A stretch of DNA of 64,000 bases from Gammaproteobacteria bacterium. Lineage in GTDB: Bacteria > Pseudomonadota > Gammaproteobacteria > Eutrophobiales > Eutrophobiaceae. The translations under genes and the position numbers were made by a program. Numbering within the stretch: the first letter of the stretch is position 1; each line of letters opens with the position of its first letter. The notes beneath the pieces are model-generated. The model did not search any database. It saw nothing but the letters and a program-made list of their open reading frames with translations, and was not told where the DNA came from. Positions 13,142 through 39,291 of this stretch are shown piece after piece. The stretch is taken from assembly GCA_965243115.1 (NCBI GenBank), contig CBDEUD010000003.1, positions 2,392,325 to 2,456,324 on the forward strand, written 5' to 3'.

Positions 13142-14200
13142 CTAACCTGTTTCTGTTAATCGGGCTTGCGCCTTTTTATCTTCATAGAACTCCAGCGCCC
13201 GTTGCCAGGTCTTGCCGTCTGGTAATTCCAGCAATGCGCCCAACAGTTGCGCGGAAAAATCTTCACTGCTTTCCTTTGGCAACATCGAAGGCAAATGGTC
13301 TATGGCTATCAGGTCCAGGACGGGTTTGTCTCTGAGGCGTAGCGCCGGCCTTACGAATGTTGTGCAGTCAGTATAAACCGGTAGCGGGTTATAGACACTG
13401 TACGGGTCGCAACTGACGTCGACTACACTGGTGAGCAAGCGCTCTTTCTCCAGCAGGTCATTGGTTATAAACGGTCGGGTGTCTGATTGAAGCAGTACGC
13501 AGTTTATCAGCATATCGTGCTCAAGTATTTCAACAAACGGGCCTCCTTCTACCGTTTCTTCCAGGTCCCACAAGGTAGTTTCCAAACCCAGGCTGTGGCA
13601 GAAGTCCGTAGCGCCGCGACCGGAGCGCCCTTTGGCTCCGACGATTATGACCCGAGGATACATGCCGGACTTCTTCAGCAAATCAGATGCTTCTACCAGC
13701 AGTTGATTCTTGTCGGGATAACTGCGGACAGGTTGCAGCTTCCCAGGTTGCGCCAGCCGGTTCATTACACCCAGGGCGGCACCTGCAAAACCCGCCCAGT
13801 AACCGAATGCGGCGATGCGCCTGCCGTTTTCGTCCAGCAGGTATTCCAGGTCGAGCAACTGCCCGCCATCTTCGGCAAACCTGCACAGCAAAGCCGTCCA
13901 GCCCGTTTGCTGCTTGTAGGCGTGGCCGAAATAGATATGCCTGTGACACAGTGCGGGTAATGGCTCCGGCAATTCCTTGAGGCCGAGAACATAACAGTCT
14001 AGCGGGGCATCCGGCCAGGAAGCGGCCGGAACGATACGGCAACCCGCCTGCCGGTATTGCCGGGTATCGAACACCCGGTTACCGCACTCTTCAACGGACA
14101 CGCTAAAGCCTGCTGCAATCAGTTCCCCCGCCGCGGCAGGGGCCAGCGCAACCCTGCGTTCGAACGGCTTGGATTCGGCGCGCAGCCATAAATGGGGCAT
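13142..14200 (-). CDS. saccharopine dehydrogenase (L-lysine-forming) / LYS1-like, AlaDH-PNT family
   Basis: HLWLRAESKPFERRVALAPAAAGELIAAGFSVSVEE aligns with yeast Lys1 HLRAETKPLEARAALTP..LIAKGF.IYVED. Further matches: LGLKELPE, DLEYLLDENGRRIAAFGYWAGFAGAALGV, IIVGAKGRSGRGA, IDHLPSMLPKESSE. Confidence 0.8.
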   Translation of the reverse strand: MPHLWLRAESKPFERRVALAPAAAGELIAAGFSVSVEECGNRVFDTRQYRQAGCRIVPAASWPDAPLDCYVLGLKELPEPLPALCHRHIYFGHAYKQQTGWTALLCRFAEDGGQLLDLEYLLDENGRRIAAFGYWAGFAGAALGVMNRLAQPGKLQPVRSYPDKNQLLVEASDLLKKSGMYPRVIIVGAKGRSGRGATDFCHSLGLETTLWDLEETVEGGPFVEILEHDMLINCVLLQSDTRPFITNDLLEKERLLTSVVDVSCDPYSVYNPLPVYTDCTTFVRPALRLRDKPVLDLIAIDHLPSMLPKESSEDFSAQLLGALLELPDGKTWQRALEFYEDKKAQARLTETG

Positions 14201-14261
14201 GATTTACGCGGTGGGCTTGAAATCTCGGATTAAGTCAGGATTTCCTTTATCTCATGCGCTA

Positions 14262-14558
14262 CTAATTTGCTGCCTGTACGTGTAATTTAACTCCCAGGGC
14301 CTTGATGATCTTTATCACTGTCGTAAAGGACGGATTGCCCTCCGATGACAACGCCTTGTATAACCCTTGCCGTGTCATCCCGGTGCTTTCTGCCAACCTG
14401 CCCATGCCTTTTGCACGGGCAATATTATTCAACGCGGTACGGATCAGGGCGCCATCACCGGTGTCCTCTTCCATGCATGCATCCAGGTACAAGGCCATGT
14501 CTTCTTCAGTATGAAGATAATCAGTAACATCATACGGGGTCAGTTTTACTTCAGCCAT
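14262..14558 (-). CDS. addiction-module antidote protein (HigA/XRE-like, TIGR02684-type antitoxin)
   Basis: 98 aa. MAEVKLTPYDVTDYLHTEEDMALYLDACMEE...ALNNIARAKGMGRLAESTGMTRQGLYKALSSEGNPSFTTVIKIIKALG is the typical sequence of this antidote family. It overlaps the stop of the upstream toxin ORF. Confidence 0.8.
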   Translation of the reverse strand: MAEVKLTPYDVTDYLHTEEDMALYLDACMEEDTGDGALIRTALNNIARAKGMGRLAESTGMTRQGLYKALSSEGNPSFTTVIKIIKALGVKLHVQAAN

Positions 14559-14737
14559 CTACGTACCTCCCCGGCTATTTCAAGAGCCTGTTCAATAACA
14601 CCTTTACCTACCGCTCGGCAATCACCCAGGTTACCTTGTTGAACATTTTCCAGACGCGCCGCGATTTTCGCTTTTGCTTGCCTGTCCCGCAATCCTCTGA
14701 GCCATTTGCCAAAGACTTCCGTTGTCTGAACCAACAT
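14546..14737 (-). CDS. addiction-module killer protein (RelE/ParE-superfamily, TIGR02683-like), apparently internally deleted
   Basis: N-terminus MLVQTTEVFGKWLRGLRDRQAKAKIAARLENVQQGNLGDCRAVGKGV matches the family, but the protein is only 63 aa. The conserved SELRIDYGPGYRVYF...GGDKSTQ core is missing. Confidence 0.55.
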   Translation of the reverse strand: MLVQTTEVFGKWLRGLRDRQAKAKIAARLENVQQGNLGDCRAVGKGVIEQALEIAGEVRRWLK

Positions 14738-14747
14738 GGCGATATAG

Positions 14748-14763
14748 TAAACTATAGTTTACA
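14748..14763. promoter_or_regulatory. perfect 16-bp palindrome GTAAACTATAGTTTAC, candidate TA-module operator
   Basis: Self-complementary 16-mer 11 bp upstream of the toxin start codon. Autoregulatory operators at this position are typical for type II TA operons. Confidence 0.5.
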
Positions 14764-14814
14764 CTAATGTCAATGCTTTTATGCTGGCAACATGTTTCCC
14801 TGGCACATTCGCAA

Positions 14815-16122
14815 TCAATTCGTCGGCCAACTGAACACCCTCACCGCGCCTTCGGAAACGTCGAGTTCGCACTTCACCATCTCTCCTTTGCGGATGATGG
14901 CCGGCAGCGCCGCACCGTCCCGTTCCAGCAGGGAAATGTCTTCCAGGGGATTGCCGTCCACAACCAGCAGGTCGGCAAACGCCCCTTCCCTGATACAACC
15001 GAGCCTGTCGGGTTCCATCAGGATCTCGGCGTTGACTGCCGTGGCCTGGTGAAGGATCTCAAATGGCGTGAAGACTTGTTTCCTGATAGCAAATTCCGTG
15101 CATTGCCGTACATGTTGCGCGCCCAGCAGGTCCGTACCCAGGCCCATTTTCACACCGGCAGCGCGCATGGTTTCCAGACCATCCATAGCCTGGGCGTAAA
15201 CAAGCTTGACTTTTTCCTGGCCAGCTGGCGGCAGACCATACTTGGCGCCTTCTTCATGAAGTGCGAACAGTACTGCAAAAGTGGGAACGACGTAGGCATT
15301 CCGGCCGGCCACATAGTCCGCGGTTTCCTTGTCAATCAGGGTCGCATGCTCGATACAGCGCACCCCGAACTCCACACAACGCCTGACCGCTTCGGTCGGG
15401 TGGCAATGGGCTGACACGTAGGTTTCCTGACGTGCGCATTCATCCACCGCAGCGCGAATCTCTTCTTCGGTAAACTGTGTGTGGTGCAGTGGATCATTGG
15501 GACTGACTACACCACCAGACCCCATTATCTTTATGCAATGGGAGCCCTTTCTCAATTCGTCGCGTACTGCGCGCCGCATTTCATAAGGATCATCGACAAT
15601 GCGCGTCAGTTTGGTCGAATAGTTGCCACAGGTACAAAGTTGATCCGATGGATCCACTTCCCAGCCCGGGCGCATATCGCCGTGCCCCCCGGTTTGCGAC
15701 ATGATTTTTCCTGCGTAATAAAAACGCGGGGCACGCACCAGTCCATGGTCGATAGCGCGGGAGATTCCGACGTCACCGCCCCCAATATCGCGTATCGTTG
15801 TAAATCCCCGAGCCAGGGTCGCATTGAGAAACACATTGGCATACTGGGCAATATACGTCTCCGGCATCCTGGATAGCGCCGTCGTATCCAGGGTGGGGAT
15901 ACATACATGGATATGATTATCTATCAGACCGGGTATCACGGTGCGACCCCCGGCATCGACCACGTGATCGCTCCGGCTGCCTGTCTCGCTCGTGGAGATT
16001 TCTTTGATCTCGCCATCCGCCAGCAAGATGTTGGAACGGTCCGACAGTTCCGGGCTATGTCCGTCAAATATATGCGCATTTTTTATAAGTATCGATTCAC
16101 TGGTCATCTCTGTCATTCTCAT
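14815..16122 (-). CDS. amidohydrolase-family metal-dependent hydrolase
   Basis: IPGLIDNHIHV metal-binding HxH motif near the N-terminus, 435 aa, with further His/Asp positions. The start overlaps the upstream gene by 4 bp (ATGA). Confidence 0.8.
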   Translation of the reverse strand: MRMTEMTSESILIKNAHIFDGHSPELSDRSNILLADGEIKEISTSETGSRSDHVVDAGGRTVIPGLIDNHIHVCIPTLDTTALSRMPETYIAQYANVFLNATLARGFTTIRDIGGGDVGISRAIDHGLVRAPRFYYAGKIMSQTGGHGDMRPGWEVDPSDQLCTCGNYSTKLTRIVDDPYEMRRAVRDELRKGSHCIKIMGSGGVVSPNDPLHHTQFTEEEIRAAVDECARQETYVSAHCHPTEAVRRCVEFGVRCIEHATLIDKETADYVAGRNAYVVPTFAVLFALHEEGAKYGLPPAGQEKVKLVYAQAMDGLETMRAAGVKMGLGTDLLGAQHVRQCTEFAIRKQVFTPFEILHQATAVNAEILMEPDRLGCIREGAFADLLVVDGNPLEDISLLERDGAALPAIIRKGEMVKCELDVSEGAVRVFSWPTN

Positions 16123-17313: not shown

Positions 17314-18621
17314 ATGAAACAACTGATTATCCCGGTTATCCTGCTTTTCCTGGCGCAGCAGGTACACGCTGACGATCCGCCGTTATATCCCTATCCCGCT
17401 CCGGAAGATATTACCCTGGAAGACATCGTTCCCGCAGCGATGGACAATCTCAGCCGGCCGGGATACGTTCCCGGAATGAAGCCGGGGGAAAAGGTCTTGA
17501 TCGTTTCCGATCGTTCCGTGGATCCGCTGGCTGCCGAAGCCTTCTACGTTGCCGCGTGGCGCCTGGGCGCAAGCCAGGTGGATACGATTATGCTGCAAGG
17601 CCGCCTGGACGTGACCGACCCTACTGAACTGGTCCTCGAGATCTTCGAGAAAGATCCGTGGCCGCAATGGGTATGGGACACCGCCGCGGGTTATGACAGG
17701 GTATTGCCGTTGTCCTTTATCAACCCGGTCAACCTGATGCCGGCCGTCAACGTTCCCGGCGTCGGCTGGAAGAACAAATGGGCCCACGATACCGATACCG
17801 TGCTTCACATGCTGTGGAATACGCACCAGCAACGCCAGCGCCTCGCCGCCAACAGGGACTACCCCGATGAACTTGTCTGGGCGCTGATCCGCAAGGGTTA
17901 CGACACCATGCGCAGCGGTAAAAAATTTCACCTGACCGATCCCAACGGCACGGACCTGCGGTGGACGCTGGATGAGCAGATGTGGGAAGGTTATAACGAG
18001 TTATGGGGTGATATCGTCAACAACCACTCGCCGCGAATCCACCTCAGTGACAACCCGGAAATGCAAGGCGTTTTCGTATCGGACCACCTGCATTCCGGCC
18101 GTATCCCTACAATTGAACTGCACATTGATAAAGGCAAGGTCACAGAGGTAAAAGGCGGCGGCAGCATGGGTGATTACCTGCGCACCGCGTTTGAAAAATA
18201 CAAGGACGTCCAGTACCCGCACTTCCCCGGCCCGGGGGTTAACTGGGTGGAGTACCTGGTCTGGGGTTTTTACCCGGTCCCCGGTTACGAACCGCTGCCG
18301 GACATCCCGGAGATGGCCTGGTCCGGCAAGTGGTGGACCTACAACATCGACCTGAAAGCGGGCTTGGTCCATATTGCCGTCGGCACGACGGCCGGCGGAT
18401 TTACCGCGGAATTCACCAGGGAGCACGGCTATCCCGTGCATCACAAGGACTTCGTGATCTACCGGCCGACGTTGACGGTGGACGGGGAAGTAATCATCGA
18501 GCGCGGCCACCTCACGGCGCTGGATGACCCGGAGATCCGCGCCATCGCCGCCAAATACGGCGATCCGGACACGCTGCTGAAACAACCGTGGAGCCCGGAT
18601 CAGGACCCGCGTTTCAGGTAA
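17314..18621 (+). CDS. exported hypothetical protein (signal peptide), family not recognised
   Basis: N-terminal signal MKQLIIPVILLFLAQQVHA. 435 aa. No diagnostic motif that I can name with confidence. Confidence 0.45.
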   Translation: MKQLIIPVILLFLAQQVHADDPPLYPYPAPEDITLEDIVPAAMDNLSRPGYVPGMKPGEKVLIVSDRSVDPLAAEAFYVAAWRLGASQVDTIMLQGRLDVTDPTELVLEIFEKDPWPQWVWDTAAGYDRVLPLSFINPVNLMPAVNVPGVGWKNKWAHDTDTVLHMLWNTHQQRQRLAANRDYPDELVWALIRKGYDTMRSGKKFHLTDPNGTDLRWTLDEQMWEGYNELWGDIVNNHSPRIHLSDNPEMQGVFVSDHLHSGRIPTIELHIDKGKVTEVKGGGSMGDYLRTAFEKYKDVQYPHFPGPGVNWVEYLVWGFYPVPGYEPLPDIPEMAWSGKWWTYNIDLKAGLVHIAVGTTAGGFTAEFTREHGYPVHHKDFVIYRPTLTVDGEVIIERGHLTALDDPEIRAIAAKYGDPDTLLKQPWSPDQDPRFR

Positions 18622-37855: not shown

Positions 37856-39291
37856 GCAAACAGGCCGCCGGGATCCAGGGCCTGTTTAAGCCTGCCGCGC
37901 AGTTCGGCCATGCCGGCGTTATCGTAGCCGGCCAGCGCCCGATCCAGGTAGCCGGTGCTGATGTGGCTGACGCCATAGCCCCGCTGCGCCATCGTATCGA
38001 CAAGTGTCTCAAGGCATGCGGCTGCCCTGGGCTCGGCGTCACGCTGGTAGGTCAAATAGACACGCTGGATGACGGAGCGCCAGCCGACGGCAAATTCCGT
38101 CAGGTAGTCGAACCCGCTGCTGCGCACCGTGTCGCCGACCAGCTTGTTCATCTTCAGGACCTGCCGGCCGTCGATAGGACTGACAAAACCGGCATACAGG
38201 TGCGCCTGGCCCGACCAGTTGTTGAGATTGCTGAACTCCGCGGAGGGCCGGCCGCGCATCATGCTCTCCCTGGCGGCCAGCACCGGGTTGCCTGCCCGCG
38301 TCTTCAGGTCGAGCACCGCAGCGCCCTGGATACCTGAAAAGGCTCCTTTTACCATGGGCCATAATACATCGACGTTAGGAGGGGTGTTGTATAACGCGCC
38401 GTACAGGGTCCATAGCCCCAGGCCATGATCCGCCCTCAACCTGTCCAGGTCGACAGTATTTCCGCTGATGTAATCCTGCCGGGAACTGAACGGACTCGCA
38501 TCCAGCGCGGGATTACTGATAACTACCGTGTTCGGTATGATCACGTTGACCTTGAATGAACGCAGTATCTCCACCGCCTGGGCCAGGTCGCCGTTACTCT
38601 CCAGGGTAACGGCAAAAGGCTGGTAGGCAGGCGGCGCCGGCATCAGCCATACCCCCATTTTTGTCACCACACCCAGGCTGGACTGGGTAAACAGGCCGTC
38701 CAGGTAGGGACCGTAGGCGTATTTCGCCAGTTGCCAGGTATTGCTCTTCGGCATGGCGCCCATGCCCAGCCTTACCAGTTCGCCGCCGGCCAGCATGACC
38801 TCCATCCCGCACTGCATCATCGTGTGGTCCCCGTAGGCGGTATACCCGAACTCCCGGGCGGTGATGCTGCCGGCTACGGAATTCAGGCCGTTCCTGTCGC
38901 AATCCACCCACAGGCCGGTATTGTTTTCCTCCAGGTACGCATTCAACTGCGCGTAACTCACGCCCGGTTCCACCAGGGCATAGGCGGCTTTAGCGTTAAC
39001 CTCCACGATGTTGTTCATGCGGGACTGGTCGATGACCAGGATAGCCTTCTCCGTAGCGCCGCTGACCATGGCGCCGTTTGCGGCGCTGTTGGGTAATACC
39101 CACAGGGAGACCGCGCTTTCTGCGGCGGCCGCCAGCACTGACCTTAACTGTTCAATGTCTTCGGGAAGGACTACGCCGGCGGGCGTCTTGCCAAGCCGCG
39201 CGTACCCCCCCTTGGCGATAGCGTCGTTGCCGGACAAAACGGCATCACTGCCCAGTTGATCCCTCAGTTTATTAATCAGTTTTATTGACAT
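37852..39291 (-). CDS. FAD-linked oxidase, vanillyl-alcohol oxidase/p-cresol methylhydroxylase (VAO/PCMH) family, cytoplasmic paralog
   Basis: Clear paralog of the 41484-43154 ORF (EPGVSY..L..YL...LW.D....G.SV.G...E.G.GYT.YGDH). No signal peptide. 479 aa. Confidence 0.75.
   Translation of the reverse strand: MSIKLINKLRDQLGSDAVLSGNDAIAKGGYARLGKTPAGVVLPEDIEQLRSVLAAAAESAVSLWVLPNSAANGAMVSGATEKAILVIDQSRMNNIVEVNAKAAYALVEPGVSYAQLNAYLEENNTGLWVDCDRNGLNSVAGSITAREFGYTAYGDHTMMQCGMEVMLAGGELVRLGMGAMPKSNTWQLAKYAYGPYLDGLFTQSSLGVVTKMGVWLMPAPPAYQPFAVTLESNGDLAQAVEILRSFKVNVIIPNTVVISNPALDASPFSSRQDYISGNTVDLDRLRADHGLGLWTLYGALYNTPPNVDVLWPMVKGAFSGIQGAAVLDLKTRAGNPVLAARESMMRGRPSAEFSNLNNWSGQAHLYAGFVSPIDGRQVLKMNKLVGDTVRSSGFDYLTEFAVGWRSVIQRVYLTYQRDAEPRAAACLETLVDTMAQRGYGVSHISTGYLDRALAGYDNAGMAELRGRLKQALDPGGLFA

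What the first reader, a model, noticed from the sequence alone, without database searches (positions are those of the whole stretch)
14262..14763. Toxin-antitoxin pair with an internally deleted toxin and a perfect palindromic operator
The antidote gene is intact and full length. The killer-protein ORF begins like its family (MLVQTTEVFGKWLRGLRDRQAKAKIAARLENVQQGNLGDCRAVGKGV) but then jumps to IEQALEIAGEVRRWLK and stops at 63 aa, where family members are ~100 aa. The conserved ELRIDYGPGYRVYF...GGDKSTQ core seems to have been removed by an in-frame deletion that still preserves the toxin-stop/antitoxin-start overlap. A perfect 16-bp palindrome (GTAAACTATAGTTTAC) sits 11 bp upstream of the toxin ATG as a likely operator. 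This looks like a domesticated or inactivated TA locus, with the antitoxin retained, at the boundary between two catabolic operons.
Basis: partly seen in the sequence, partly recalled or inferred. Interest (0 to 1): 0.5.

Follow-up and report, generated by a model that had tools for sequence, protein, structure and literature searches.

The report
Decaying toxin-antitoxin pair, toxin core deleted
This is a small bacterial toxin-antitoxin gene pair whose toxin has lost its working core through a clean 111-base in-frame deletion, while the antitoxin gene and its DNA control site are still intact. This is an ordinary and well-documented way for such modules to decay.

Summary
On the minus strand, a 63-aa ORF (14546-14737) overlaps a 98-aa antitoxin gene (14262-14558) by 13 nt.

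- **Toxin remnant.** The ORF matches the RelE/ParE-type toxin model TIGR02683 only at positions 3-52 of 95 and scores below the cut-off. Its closest relatives, 18 of the 20 found, are 100 aa. Protein and DNA alignments show one 111-bp (37-codon) in-frame deletion, which removes three predicted β-strands and the conserved motifs.
- **Antitoxin.** It is full length and keeps every invariant family position.
- **Palindrome.** GTAAACTATAGTTTAC lies at 14747-14762, 9 nt from the ATG rather than 11. It sits between a TTGACA -35 and a TACTAT -10. In 29 distinct family loci it is one version of a TGTA-N10-TACA dyad whose arms co-vary. The footprinted Vibrio cholerae HigA2 operator has the same layout.

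The locus is therefore best read as an auto-repressed antitoxin gene behind a dead toxin remnant.

- **Erosion is recurrent.** Nine of 38 related loci with a recognisable toxin show toxin erosion with the antitoxin kept. Two further independent core deletions were found.
- **Other findings.** The cassette sits at different sites in related genomes. The window copy is a recombinant mosaic whose breakpoint coincides with the deletion.

Domestication of the remnant is not shown. The case is ordinary and of modest interest.

The parts
14768..14773 (-). -35 hexamer TTGACA of the TA promoter
   Evidence: Promoter scan: TTGACA, 18-nt spacer, TACTAT, 10 of 12 matches. A TTGAnn element at the same distance is seen in other family loci.
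14746..14763 (-). Operator dyad TGTAAACTATAGTTTACT. The perfect 16-bp palindrome is 14747-14762. It fills the promoter spacer and overlaps the -10.
   Evidence: Unique in the window, 0 expected by chance. It is one version of a TGTA-N10-TACA dyad found 4-12 nt (mostly 8-12) upstream of the toxin ATG in 29 distinct loci. Arm complementarity is 83.5% against 26-42% for slid controls, and 6 of 9 pairs show changes on both sides. The V. cholerae HigA2 operator TGTACGC-N5-GCGTACA has the same placement.
14744..14749 (-). -10 hexamer TACTAT. Only 6 nt separate it from the toxin ATG, so the transcript is probably leaderless.
   Evidence: The same 4-7 nt gap between TACAnT and the ATG is seen in other family loci. 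The leaderless start is an inference; no transcription start site data exist.
14546..14737 (-). Toxin remnant ORF, 63 aa. It consists of family residues 1-47 joined to residues 85-100.
   Evidence: TIGR02683 is matched only at positions 3-52 of 95, below the cut-off. The AlphaFold2 model of the remnant is all-helical with pTM 0.39.
14596..14597 (-). Junction of the 111-bp (37-codon) in-frame deletion (GTT|ATT)
   Evidence: DNA alignments A2. There is no exact microhomology at the junction, only an imperfect TGAA 2 nt inside each end.
14566..14570 (-). Shine-Dalgarno GGAGG of the antitoxin gene. It lies inside the retained toxin tail, 7 nt before the antitoxin ATG.
   Evidence: Read directly from the sequence. 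The element is conserved in the relatives' alignment.
14262..14558 (-). Intact antitoxin gene, 98 aa, with an N-terminal segment and a C-terminal Xre-type HTH
   Evidence: TIGR02684 110.5 bits (cut-off 53.7), plus PF21716 and HTH_3. It keeps all invariant and nearly invariant columns of a 30-sequence family alignment.
14451..14596 (-). Divergent recombinant patch covering the toxin tail and antitoxin codons 1-36. It is about 17% different from the closest relatives, while its flanks differ by 1-5%. Its left edge is the deletion junction.
   Evidence: Differences are 1/141 in toxin codons 1-47 against 25/146 in the patch (Fisher p = 3e-7). dS is about 0.9 in the patch against about 0.1 downstream.
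14262..14811 (-). Extent of the cassette (promoter to antitoxin stop) shared with relatives that carry it at other genomic sites
   Evidence: BLAST and alignments. The shared left boundary is AATGTGYCAGGGAAACATGTTGCC, and homology ends at the antitoxin stop codon.

Best explanation
This is an eroded type II toxin-antitoxin module of the HI1419/HI1420 family: a RelE/ParE-superfamily toxin (TIGR02683/PF05973) followed by an HTH antitoxin (TIGR02684/PF21716).

A single 111-bp in-frame deletion removed toxin residues 48-84. These form three of the five predicted β-strands, the start of the C-terminal helix, and the conserved RIxYGPGYR and GGxKxxQxxD motifs. The 63-aa remnant therefore cannot form the RNase fold and is very probably non-toxic (inferred from sequence and models; toxicity was not tested).

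The promoter, the operator dyad that overlaps the -10, the antitoxin ribosome-binding site inside the retained toxin tail, and the antitoxin gene are all intact. The locus should therefore now behave as a negatively auto-regulated antitoxin/repressor gene preceded by a short, probably leaderless, remnant ORF. An antitoxin dimer would bind TGTAAAC-N4-GTTTAC and shut off its own promoter (inferred by comparison; not measured here).

This is the usual 'toxin first' route of TA decay. Whether the antitoxin is kept because decay is recent or because it gives immunity against incoming intact copies of this evidently mobile cassette is not resolved.
For: - Deletion.
- What was lost: the AlphaFold2 model of the full-length relative has strands at 2-5, 41-44, 47-52, 58-65 and 68-74, and helices at 7-15, 19-33 and 78-99. 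Its best PDB fold matches are HigB2 5jaa_D and RelE 4fxe. In VcHigB2 the catalytic Arg64 and Tyr82 lie on β3 and β4 (PMC5416850). The remnant model has no β-sheet and pTM 0.39.
- Antitoxin intact. dN/dS is about 0.1 against relatives.
- Operator and promoter. HigA2 alone binds its TGTACGC-N5-GCGTACA operator, which spans from -35 to over the -10, with KD 25 nM and represses in vivo (PMC11006873).
- Recurrent toxin erosion in the family: of 50 antitoxin loci, 29 have an intact toxin and 9 have toxin remnants next to an intact antitoxin.
  - L012 has an independent 108-bp core deletion.
  - L011 has the promoter and operator fused to the toxin tail.
  - The Orrella protein P0168 has a parallel in-frame core deletion.
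- Literature: toxin-only pseudogenisation is far more common than antitoxin-only (185 vs 8 copies; PMC13617665). TA decay is reviewed in PMC7167474.
Against: - There is no experimental evidence on toxicity, expression or DNA binding.
- The full-length toxin model is only moderately confident (pLDDT 71), and its PDB fold matches have weak E-values (7.6e-3 at best).
- An in-frame deletion that keeps the N-terminal helices, the C-terminal helix and the overlap with the antitoxin start is also what a selected mini-protein would look like.
- Only one sequence carries this allele, and it was not found elsewhere, so selection on the remnant cannot be measured.
- An assembly error cannot be formally excluded without reads.
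Confidence: 0.85

Rival explanations
1. The 63-aa remnant is a domesticated, functional mini-protein. It keeps the two N-terminal helices and the C-terminal helix. It might act as a partner or co-repressor of the antitoxin, or as a leader ORF whose translation is needed for proper antitoxin expression. In-frame removal of the toxic core would then be what selection favours.
For: - The deletion is in frame and keeps the 13-nt stop/start overlap.
- At least three independent core deletions of length divisible by three occur in the family: the window (111 bp), L012 (108 bp) and Orrella P0168.
- In VcHigBA2, toxin helix α2 also contacts the globular antitoxin domain (PMC5416850), and the equivalent helix is retained here.
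Against: - The L012 deletion creates a TGA stop at its junction, so no fusion protein is made there.
- P0168 is a singleton cluster.
- Other eroded alleles keep only the tail, or carry stops or frameshifts, which looks like neutral decay.
- The main antitoxin-binding surface in the structural analogue is the β-sheet, which is deleted here.
- The remnant model has no confident fold (pTM 0.39).
- HigA2 represses without its toxin.
- One in three random deletions is in frame.
Confidence: 0.08
2. The retained antitoxin is kept by selection as an anti-addiction or immunity factor. It would neutralise intact toxins of the same cassette family arriving by horizontal transfer. The toxin remnant would be just a by-product.
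For: - Near-identical intact cassettes (96-99% in the promoter and toxin 5' part) circulate among related genomes at different sites, while flanking genes are only about 80% identical.
- The antitoxin is under purifying selection (dN/dS about 0.1) and keeps all family-invariant residues.
- The anti-addiction concept is established for chromosomal TA systems (PMC7167474).
Against: - Purifying selection measured against relatives mostly reflects history before the deletion.
- The antitoxin N-terminal neutralising segment is the most diverged part (R8P, W9Y, D16H relative to its close clade), which could weaken cross-neutralisation.
- No second, intact copy of the family is present in the 64-kb window.
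Confidence: 0.25
3. The 111-bp gap is an assembly or sequencing artefact, and the real genome has a full-length toxin.
For: - The allele was not found in any other assembly. The exact protein is not on record, and the junction was absent from the metagenome contigs.
Against: - The junction is clean and is not in a repeat or homopolymer.
- Independent, different deletions of the same gene exist in other genomes, so such alleles are real.
- The divergent patch beginning at the junction is a biological signature rather than a collapse artefact.
Confidence: 0.03

Closest known systems
HI1419/HI1420-type type II TA family (toxin TIGR02683 'upstrm_HI1419', Pfam PF05973 Gp49-like; antitoxin TIGR02684 'dnstrm_HI1420', Pfam PF21716 + HTH_3)
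   Same: The gene order is toxin first with overlapping genes. The antitoxin is a full-length member. The toxin N-terminus (residues 1-47) and C-terminal tail are 84-92% identical to 100-aa members over the retained residues.
   Different: The toxin lacks profile positions ~53-95 in the HMM match, which corresponds to family residues 48-84, and it falls below the family cut-off. It is a remnant, not a member in working order.
Vibrio cholerae HigBA2 (PDB 5JAA; PMC5416850, PMC11006873)
   Same: - Toxin-first operon.
- The toxin has two N-terminal helices, a β-sheet core and a long C-terminal helix.
- The antitoxin has an N-terminal segment and a C-terminal Xre HTH dimer.
- A single inverted-repeat operator with TGTA...TACA outer half-sites lies after -35 and over -10.
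- It is the top fold match of the modelled full-length relative.
   Different: - No sequence-level similarity to the PDB chains was detected, either with single sequences or with profiles.
- The fold match is weak (E = 7.6e-3, TM 0.48).
- The dyad spacing differs: 18 bp (TGTA-N10-TACA) against 19 bp.
- The toxin here has lost its core.
Decaying chromosomal TA systems (E. coli ccdO157; Photorhabdus TA erosion, PMC13617665; review PMC7167474)
   Same: The toxin is inactivated while the antitoxin and the neighbourhood persist. The cassette was acquired horizontally, and erosion recurs independently across lineages.
   Different: Here the inactivating lesion is a clean in-frame core deletion rather than a nonsense or frameshift mutation. 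It also coincides with the edge of a recombinant patch.

Membership tests
TIGR02683 / PF05973 RelE/ParE-superfamily toxin | Whole-protein HMM score above the curated cut-off, with a match across the profile | tested here: not met
   The window ORF scores 52.1 bits against a cut-off of 62.85, matches positions 3-52 of 95 only, and has no Pfam hit. The full-length relative P0001 scores 129.7 bits over positions 3-93 and hits PF05973 at 31.6 bits against a 23.9-bit cut-off.
TIGR02683 / PF05973 RelE/ParE-superfamily toxin | β-sheet core carrying the conserved RIxYGPGYR and GGxKxxQxxD motifs | tested here: not met
   Columns 48-84 are absent. The strands at 47-52, 58-65 and 68-74 of the model are deleted. 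The remnant model is all-helical.
TIGR02683 / PF05973 RelE/ParE-superfamily toxin | Toxicity (translation inhibition or mRNA cleavage) neutralised by the cognate antitoxin | not testable with these tools
   This needs a kill-rescue assay.
TIGR02684 / PF21716 HTH antitoxin | Full-length HMM match above the cut-off, with a C-terminal Xre-type HTH | tested here: met
   TIGR02684 110.5 bits (cut-off 53.7) over positions 1-88 of 89; PF21716 94.5 bits; HTH_3 31 bits.
TIGR02684 / PF21716 HTH antitoxin | Family-invariant residues retained | tested here: met
   All invariant and nearly invariant columns of alignment A5 are present. The substitutions P8, Y9 and H16 occur in other family members.
Type II TA operon (auto-regulated, toxin-first higBA-like layout) | Adjacent or overlapping toxin and antitoxin genes in one transcription unit | tested here: met
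   There is a 13-nt overlap and a single promoter upstream.
Type II TA operon (auto-regulated, toxin-first higBA-like layout) | Palindromic operator overlapping the promoter and bound by the antitoxin | tested here: inconclusive
   The sequence side of this feature is met. A dyad lies between -35 and -10, is conserved in position, and has co-varying arms in 29 loci. Binding itself was not tested. The analogous operator is footprinted for VcHigA2.
Vibrio cholerae HigBA2 family | Detectable homology to HigB2 and HigA2 | tested here: inconclusive
   Only a weak fold match was found (5jaa_D, E = 7.6e-3, probability 0.99, TM 0.48). No sequence or profile hits were found.

The most novel reading that the evidence does not exclude
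In-frame excision of the toxic β-sheet core may be a recurrent, selected way of disarming this TA family. It would leave a ~63-aa helical mini-protein (N-terminal hairpin plus C-terminal helix) that still works with the antitoxin, for example as a co-repressor, stabiliser or translational-coupling leader. The deletion may be produced by recombination between diverged cassette copies. The window, L012 and the Orrella protein P0168 would then be parallel instances.
Probability: 0.08. Interest if true: 0.55.

Novelty: new member of a known kind. Interest (0 to 1): 0.27.

Why it matters
The locus is mainly a clean, well-resolved example of how chromosomal toxin-antitoxin modules decay. The toxin is disarmed first, while the promoter, operator, antitoxin ribosome-binding site and antitoxin persist.

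Three by-products have some practical value.

- The operator of the HI1419/HI1420 family can be defined by comparison alone as TGTA-N10-TACA with co-varying inner arms overlapping the -10. The toxin message is probably leaderless.
- Annotation pipelines will either miss the 63-aa remnant or mislabel it as a working RelE/ParE toxin.
- The same cassette sits at several places in one conserved catabolic cluster in related uncultured gammaproteobacteria. This gives a natural series for studying TA mobility and erosion.

None of this overturns current understanding.

Tried and rejected
- **Naturally short family.** phmmer of the 63-aa ORF against 1.84 billion representatives gave matches only to query residues ~3-60. 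The 54-68-aa hits were contig-end fragments, frameshifted products, or one singleton (P0168) with a parallel deletion. Rejected.
- **Frameshift instead of deletion.** The space between the toxin ATG and the antitoxin ATG is only 180 nt, and the DNA alignment shows a single 111-bp gap. Rejected.
- **Same allele elsewhere.** The exact protein is not on record. The junction 23-mer and a 20-mer specific to the divergent patch gave 0 hits in the metagenome contigs. The closest antitoxin is 93% identical. The donor of the divergent patch was not found.
- **Sequence-level link to solved structures.** Four PDB sequence or profile searches gave nothing meaningful. Only a weak fold match was obtained.
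- **Relaxed selection on the antitoxin N-terminus after toxin loss.** The excess differences are mostly synonymous (dS about 0.9), and the amino-acid changes fall within family variation. Recombination explains the pattern better. Rejected as stated.
- **Extra operator copies in the window, which would indicate a domesticated regulator with other targets.** None were found within 3 mismatches. The one TGTA-N10-TACA match at 38388 is at chance level.
- **Plasmid or phage origin.** No close DNA relatives were found in PLSDB or INPHARED.
- **Microhomology at the junction.** None is exact. The ancestral sequence of the 3' side is unknown because that side comes from a divergent allele.

Full report
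**1. What is in the sequence.** Two overlapping ORFs lie on the minus strand. The other is a 98-aa ORF at 14262..14558. They overlap by 13 nt (ATGGCTGAAGTAA). The downstream protein is a full-length member of the 'addiction module antidote' family. It scores 110.5 bits on TIGR02684 (cut-off 53.7, positions 1-88 of 89) and 94.5 bits on PF21716, and has an Xre-type HTH_3 at residues 55-92. The upstream ORF hits the RelE/ParE-family toxin model TIGR02683 only at profile positions 3-52 of 95. Its score of 52.1 bits is below the 62.85-bit cut-off, and it has no Pfam hit.

**2. The deletion is real and precisely defined.** A search of 5.8 billion proteins returned 21 relatives. Eighteen are 100 aa, one is 99 aa, one is 98 aa and one is a 59-aa fragment. 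All but the fragment carry PF05973.
- In the protein alignment the window ORF lacks exactly columns 48-84 (SEMRIHYGPGYR[IV]YFIRSGTEIIVLLGGGTKKTQNKD). Its tail IEQALEIAGEVRRWLK aligns with the family C-terminus. Identity over the retained residues is up to 92%.
- A full-length relative (P0001) scores 129.7 bits on TIGR02683 across positions 3-93.
- I fetched the contigs that encode these relatives and aligned the DNA. This shows one clean 111-bp gap between window positions 14597 and 14596 (...GGTAAAGGTGTT|ATTGAACAG...). The reading frame and the 13-nt overlap with the antitoxin start are unchanged.
- There is no exact microhomology at the junction.

I ran it against 1.84 billion representative proteins. 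Every match covers only query residues ~3-60. The short hits are fragments, frameshifted products, or a singleton from Orrella sp. with a parallel deletion.

**3. What the deletion removes.**
- An AlphaFold2 model of the full-length relative (pLDDT 71, so moderate confidence) has strands at 2-5, 41-44, 47-52, 58-65 and 68-74, and helices at 7-15, 19-33 and 78-99.
- Its best matches among solved structures are V. cholerae HigB2 (5jaa_D) and E. coli RelE (4fxe). The E-values are weak but the probabilities are high. No sequence-level PDB relatives were found.
- The deletion takes out three strands, the start of the C-terminal helix and all the invariant core motifs.
- In HigB2 the catalytic Arg64 and Tyr82 lie on strands β3 and β4. 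The antitoxin's neutralising helix packs on the β-sheet surface (PMC5416850).
- The 63-aa remnant is modelled as helices only, with pTM 0.39.

The inference is that it cannot be an active RelE-type toxin. This was not tested experimentally.

**4. The palindrome is an operator by comparative evidence.** On the coding strand it reads TGTAAACTATAGTTTACT (14763..14746). It is unique in the window, where 0 matches are expected by chance. The promoter scan places TTGACA at 14773-14768 and TACTAT at 14749-14744 with an 18-nt spacer. The dyad therefore fills the spacer and overlaps the -10.

I collected 50 loci encoding antitoxin relatives from species-representative genomes and extracted the region upstream of each toxin.
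- There are 29 distinct sequences. In 26 of them a TGTA-N10-TACA-type dyad lies 8-12 nt from the toxin ATG; the other three lie at 4-6 nt.
- The inner arms change in a compensating way, for example AAC/GTT, GCC/GGC, GAC/GTC and CTCC/GGAG.
- Counted formally, 83.5% of arm positions are complementary, against 26-42% when the partner arm is slid by 1-3 nt. Six of nine positions show changes on both sides. None of 500 shuffles reached the observed covariation score.
- The footprinted operator of V. cholerae HigA2 is TGTACGC-N5-GCGTACA, 'starting after the -35 and extending over the -10'. HigA2 alone binds it at 25 nM and represses in vivo (PMC11006873).

So the outer half-sites and the placement match a characterised system. 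The proteins here, however, show no sequence-level similarity to the solved HigBA2 chains.

Two further inferences follow from the sequence. Only 6 nt separate the -10 from the toxin ATG here, and 4-7 nt in other family loci, so the toxin message is probably leaderless. The antitoxin has its own GGAGG (14566-14570) inside the retained toxin tail.

**5. How the locus most likely works now.** The promoter, operator, antitoxin ribosome-binding site and antitoxin are all intact. The antitoxin keeps all invariant family columns, and its dN/dS against relatives is about 0.1. The locus should behave as a self-repressed HTH-antitoxin gene preceded by a short remnant ORF, with no toxin activity. No intrinsic terminator is predicted on the minus strand between the antitoxin and the AlaDh_PNT gene 61 bp downstream. 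Some read-through into the catabolic genes is therefore possible, but this is speculative.

**6. Toxin erosion is common in this family.** Of the 50 antitoxin loci:
- 29 have an intact toxin;
- 9 have toxin remnants next to an intact antitoxin;
- 12 show no toxin-like sequence upstream.

Within the close clade there are two more independent lesions.
- L012 (Ca. Azotimanducaceae MAG) has a 108-bp deletion of codons ~41-76 that creates a TGA stop at the junction.
- L011 has the promoter and operator fused directly to the last ~16 toxin codons.

A distant homologue from Orrella sp. (P0168, 68 aa) has an in-frame core deletion almost identical in extent to the window's (GEGVSEM|KDIKRALELARGL). Several eroded alleles keep only the toxin's 3' tail, which is consistent with that tail carrying the antitoxin's translation signals. 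This pattern matches published work. Toxin-only pseudogenisation (185 copies) greatly outnumbers antitoxin-only (8) in Photorhabdus (PMC13617665), and decay of chromosomal TA systems is well known (PMC7167474).

**7. Beyond the finding: mobility and mosaicism.**
- The cassette from promoter to antitoxin stop (14262-14811) is 96% (5' part) and 90% (3' part) identical to copies in metagenome-assembled contigs. The flanking catabolic genes of those contigs are only 79-85% identical to the window.
- The cassette sits at different sites of the same cluster. In the window it follows the amidohydrolase stop. In L001 and L009 it lies in the 3' end of the AlaDh_PNT gene. In L002-L006 it lies in the 5' end of the saccharopine dehydrogenase gene, with a 12-bp duplication (TTCACTGGCTGG).
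- It also occurs in unrelated contexts (L007, L008, L010-L012). No close relatives are found on known plasmids or phages.
- Within the window copy, divergence from the closest clade is 1/141 in toxin codons 1-47. It then jumps to 25/146 from the deletion junction through antitoxin codon 36 (dS about 0.9) and falls back to about 4-5% (dS about 0.1). Fisher p is 3e-7 for the first contrast and about 4e-4 for the second, but the segments were chosen after looking at the data.

The window allele therefore carries a patch from an unsampled divergent allele whose left edge is the deletion junction. Either the deletion arose in a misaligned recombination between diverged copies, or a later deletion happened to end inside the patch. 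The data cannot separate these two scenarios.

**8. Verdict.** 'Inactivated' is well supported. 'Domesticated' is not shown. The mini-protein and anti-addiction readings remain possible but untested. The locus is a new, eroded member of a known TA family undergoing a known kind of decay. It is a tidy example rather than a surprise.

Noticed in passing
window 14262-14811; L001:542-1136; L002:5907-6852; L009:5640-6300: The same promoter-to-stop TA cassette occupies three different insertion points within one conserved catabolic gene cluster in related genomes. It is much more similar between genomes (90-99%) than the flanking genes are (~80%). In L002-L006 the insert is flanked by a 12-bp direct repeat, TTCACTGGCTGG, and supplies a new start codon for the saccharopine dehydrogenase gene. 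No recombinase is seen nearby.
   Followed up: partly
window 14451-14596: A 146-bp patch covering the toxin tail and antitoxin codons 1-36 is about 17% diverged from the closest clade (dS about 0.9), while both flanks are 1-5% diverged. Its left edge is the deletion junction. The donor allele was not found in any collection searched.
   Followed up: partly
L002:2347-2964 and L006:2350-2964: Relatives carry a second pair of the same TA family downstream of the amidohydrolase gene, about 380 bp beyond its stop. Its toxin is 49% identical to P0001. It has its own dyad, TGTAGCCACGAGGCTACA. In L006 the toxin gene was not called as a gene.
   Followed up: partly
window 14200-14815 compared with L002:1963-4812: A fumarylacetoacetate-hydrolase-family gene lies between the amidohydrolase and AlaDh_PNT genes in L002, L003 and L006, and L009 and L056 have a gap of matching size there. 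The gene is absent from the whole 64-kb window. The TA cassette occupies that interval instead.
   Followed up: partly
L011:5900-6010; L012:5819-6013: Two independent toxin deletions occur in close relatives. In L011 the promoter and operator are fused to the last ~16 toxin codons, and the Shine-Dalgarno region carries an extra 11-bp deletion. L012 has a 108-bp core deletion that creates a TGA stop at the junction.
   Followed up: yes
window 14738-14749 and family loci: The toxin ATG lies only 4-7 nt downstream of the -10 hexamer across the family, and no Shine-Dalgarno sequence precedes it. This implies leaderless toxin translation, in contrast to the Shine-Dalgarno-driven antitoxin.
   Followed up: no
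window 17314-18621 (+): A 435-aa ORF next to the cluster has no Pfam hit at E <= 1e-5. It is flanked by genes for TPR-sulfotransferase and TPR-2OG-oxygenase proteins.
   Followed up: no
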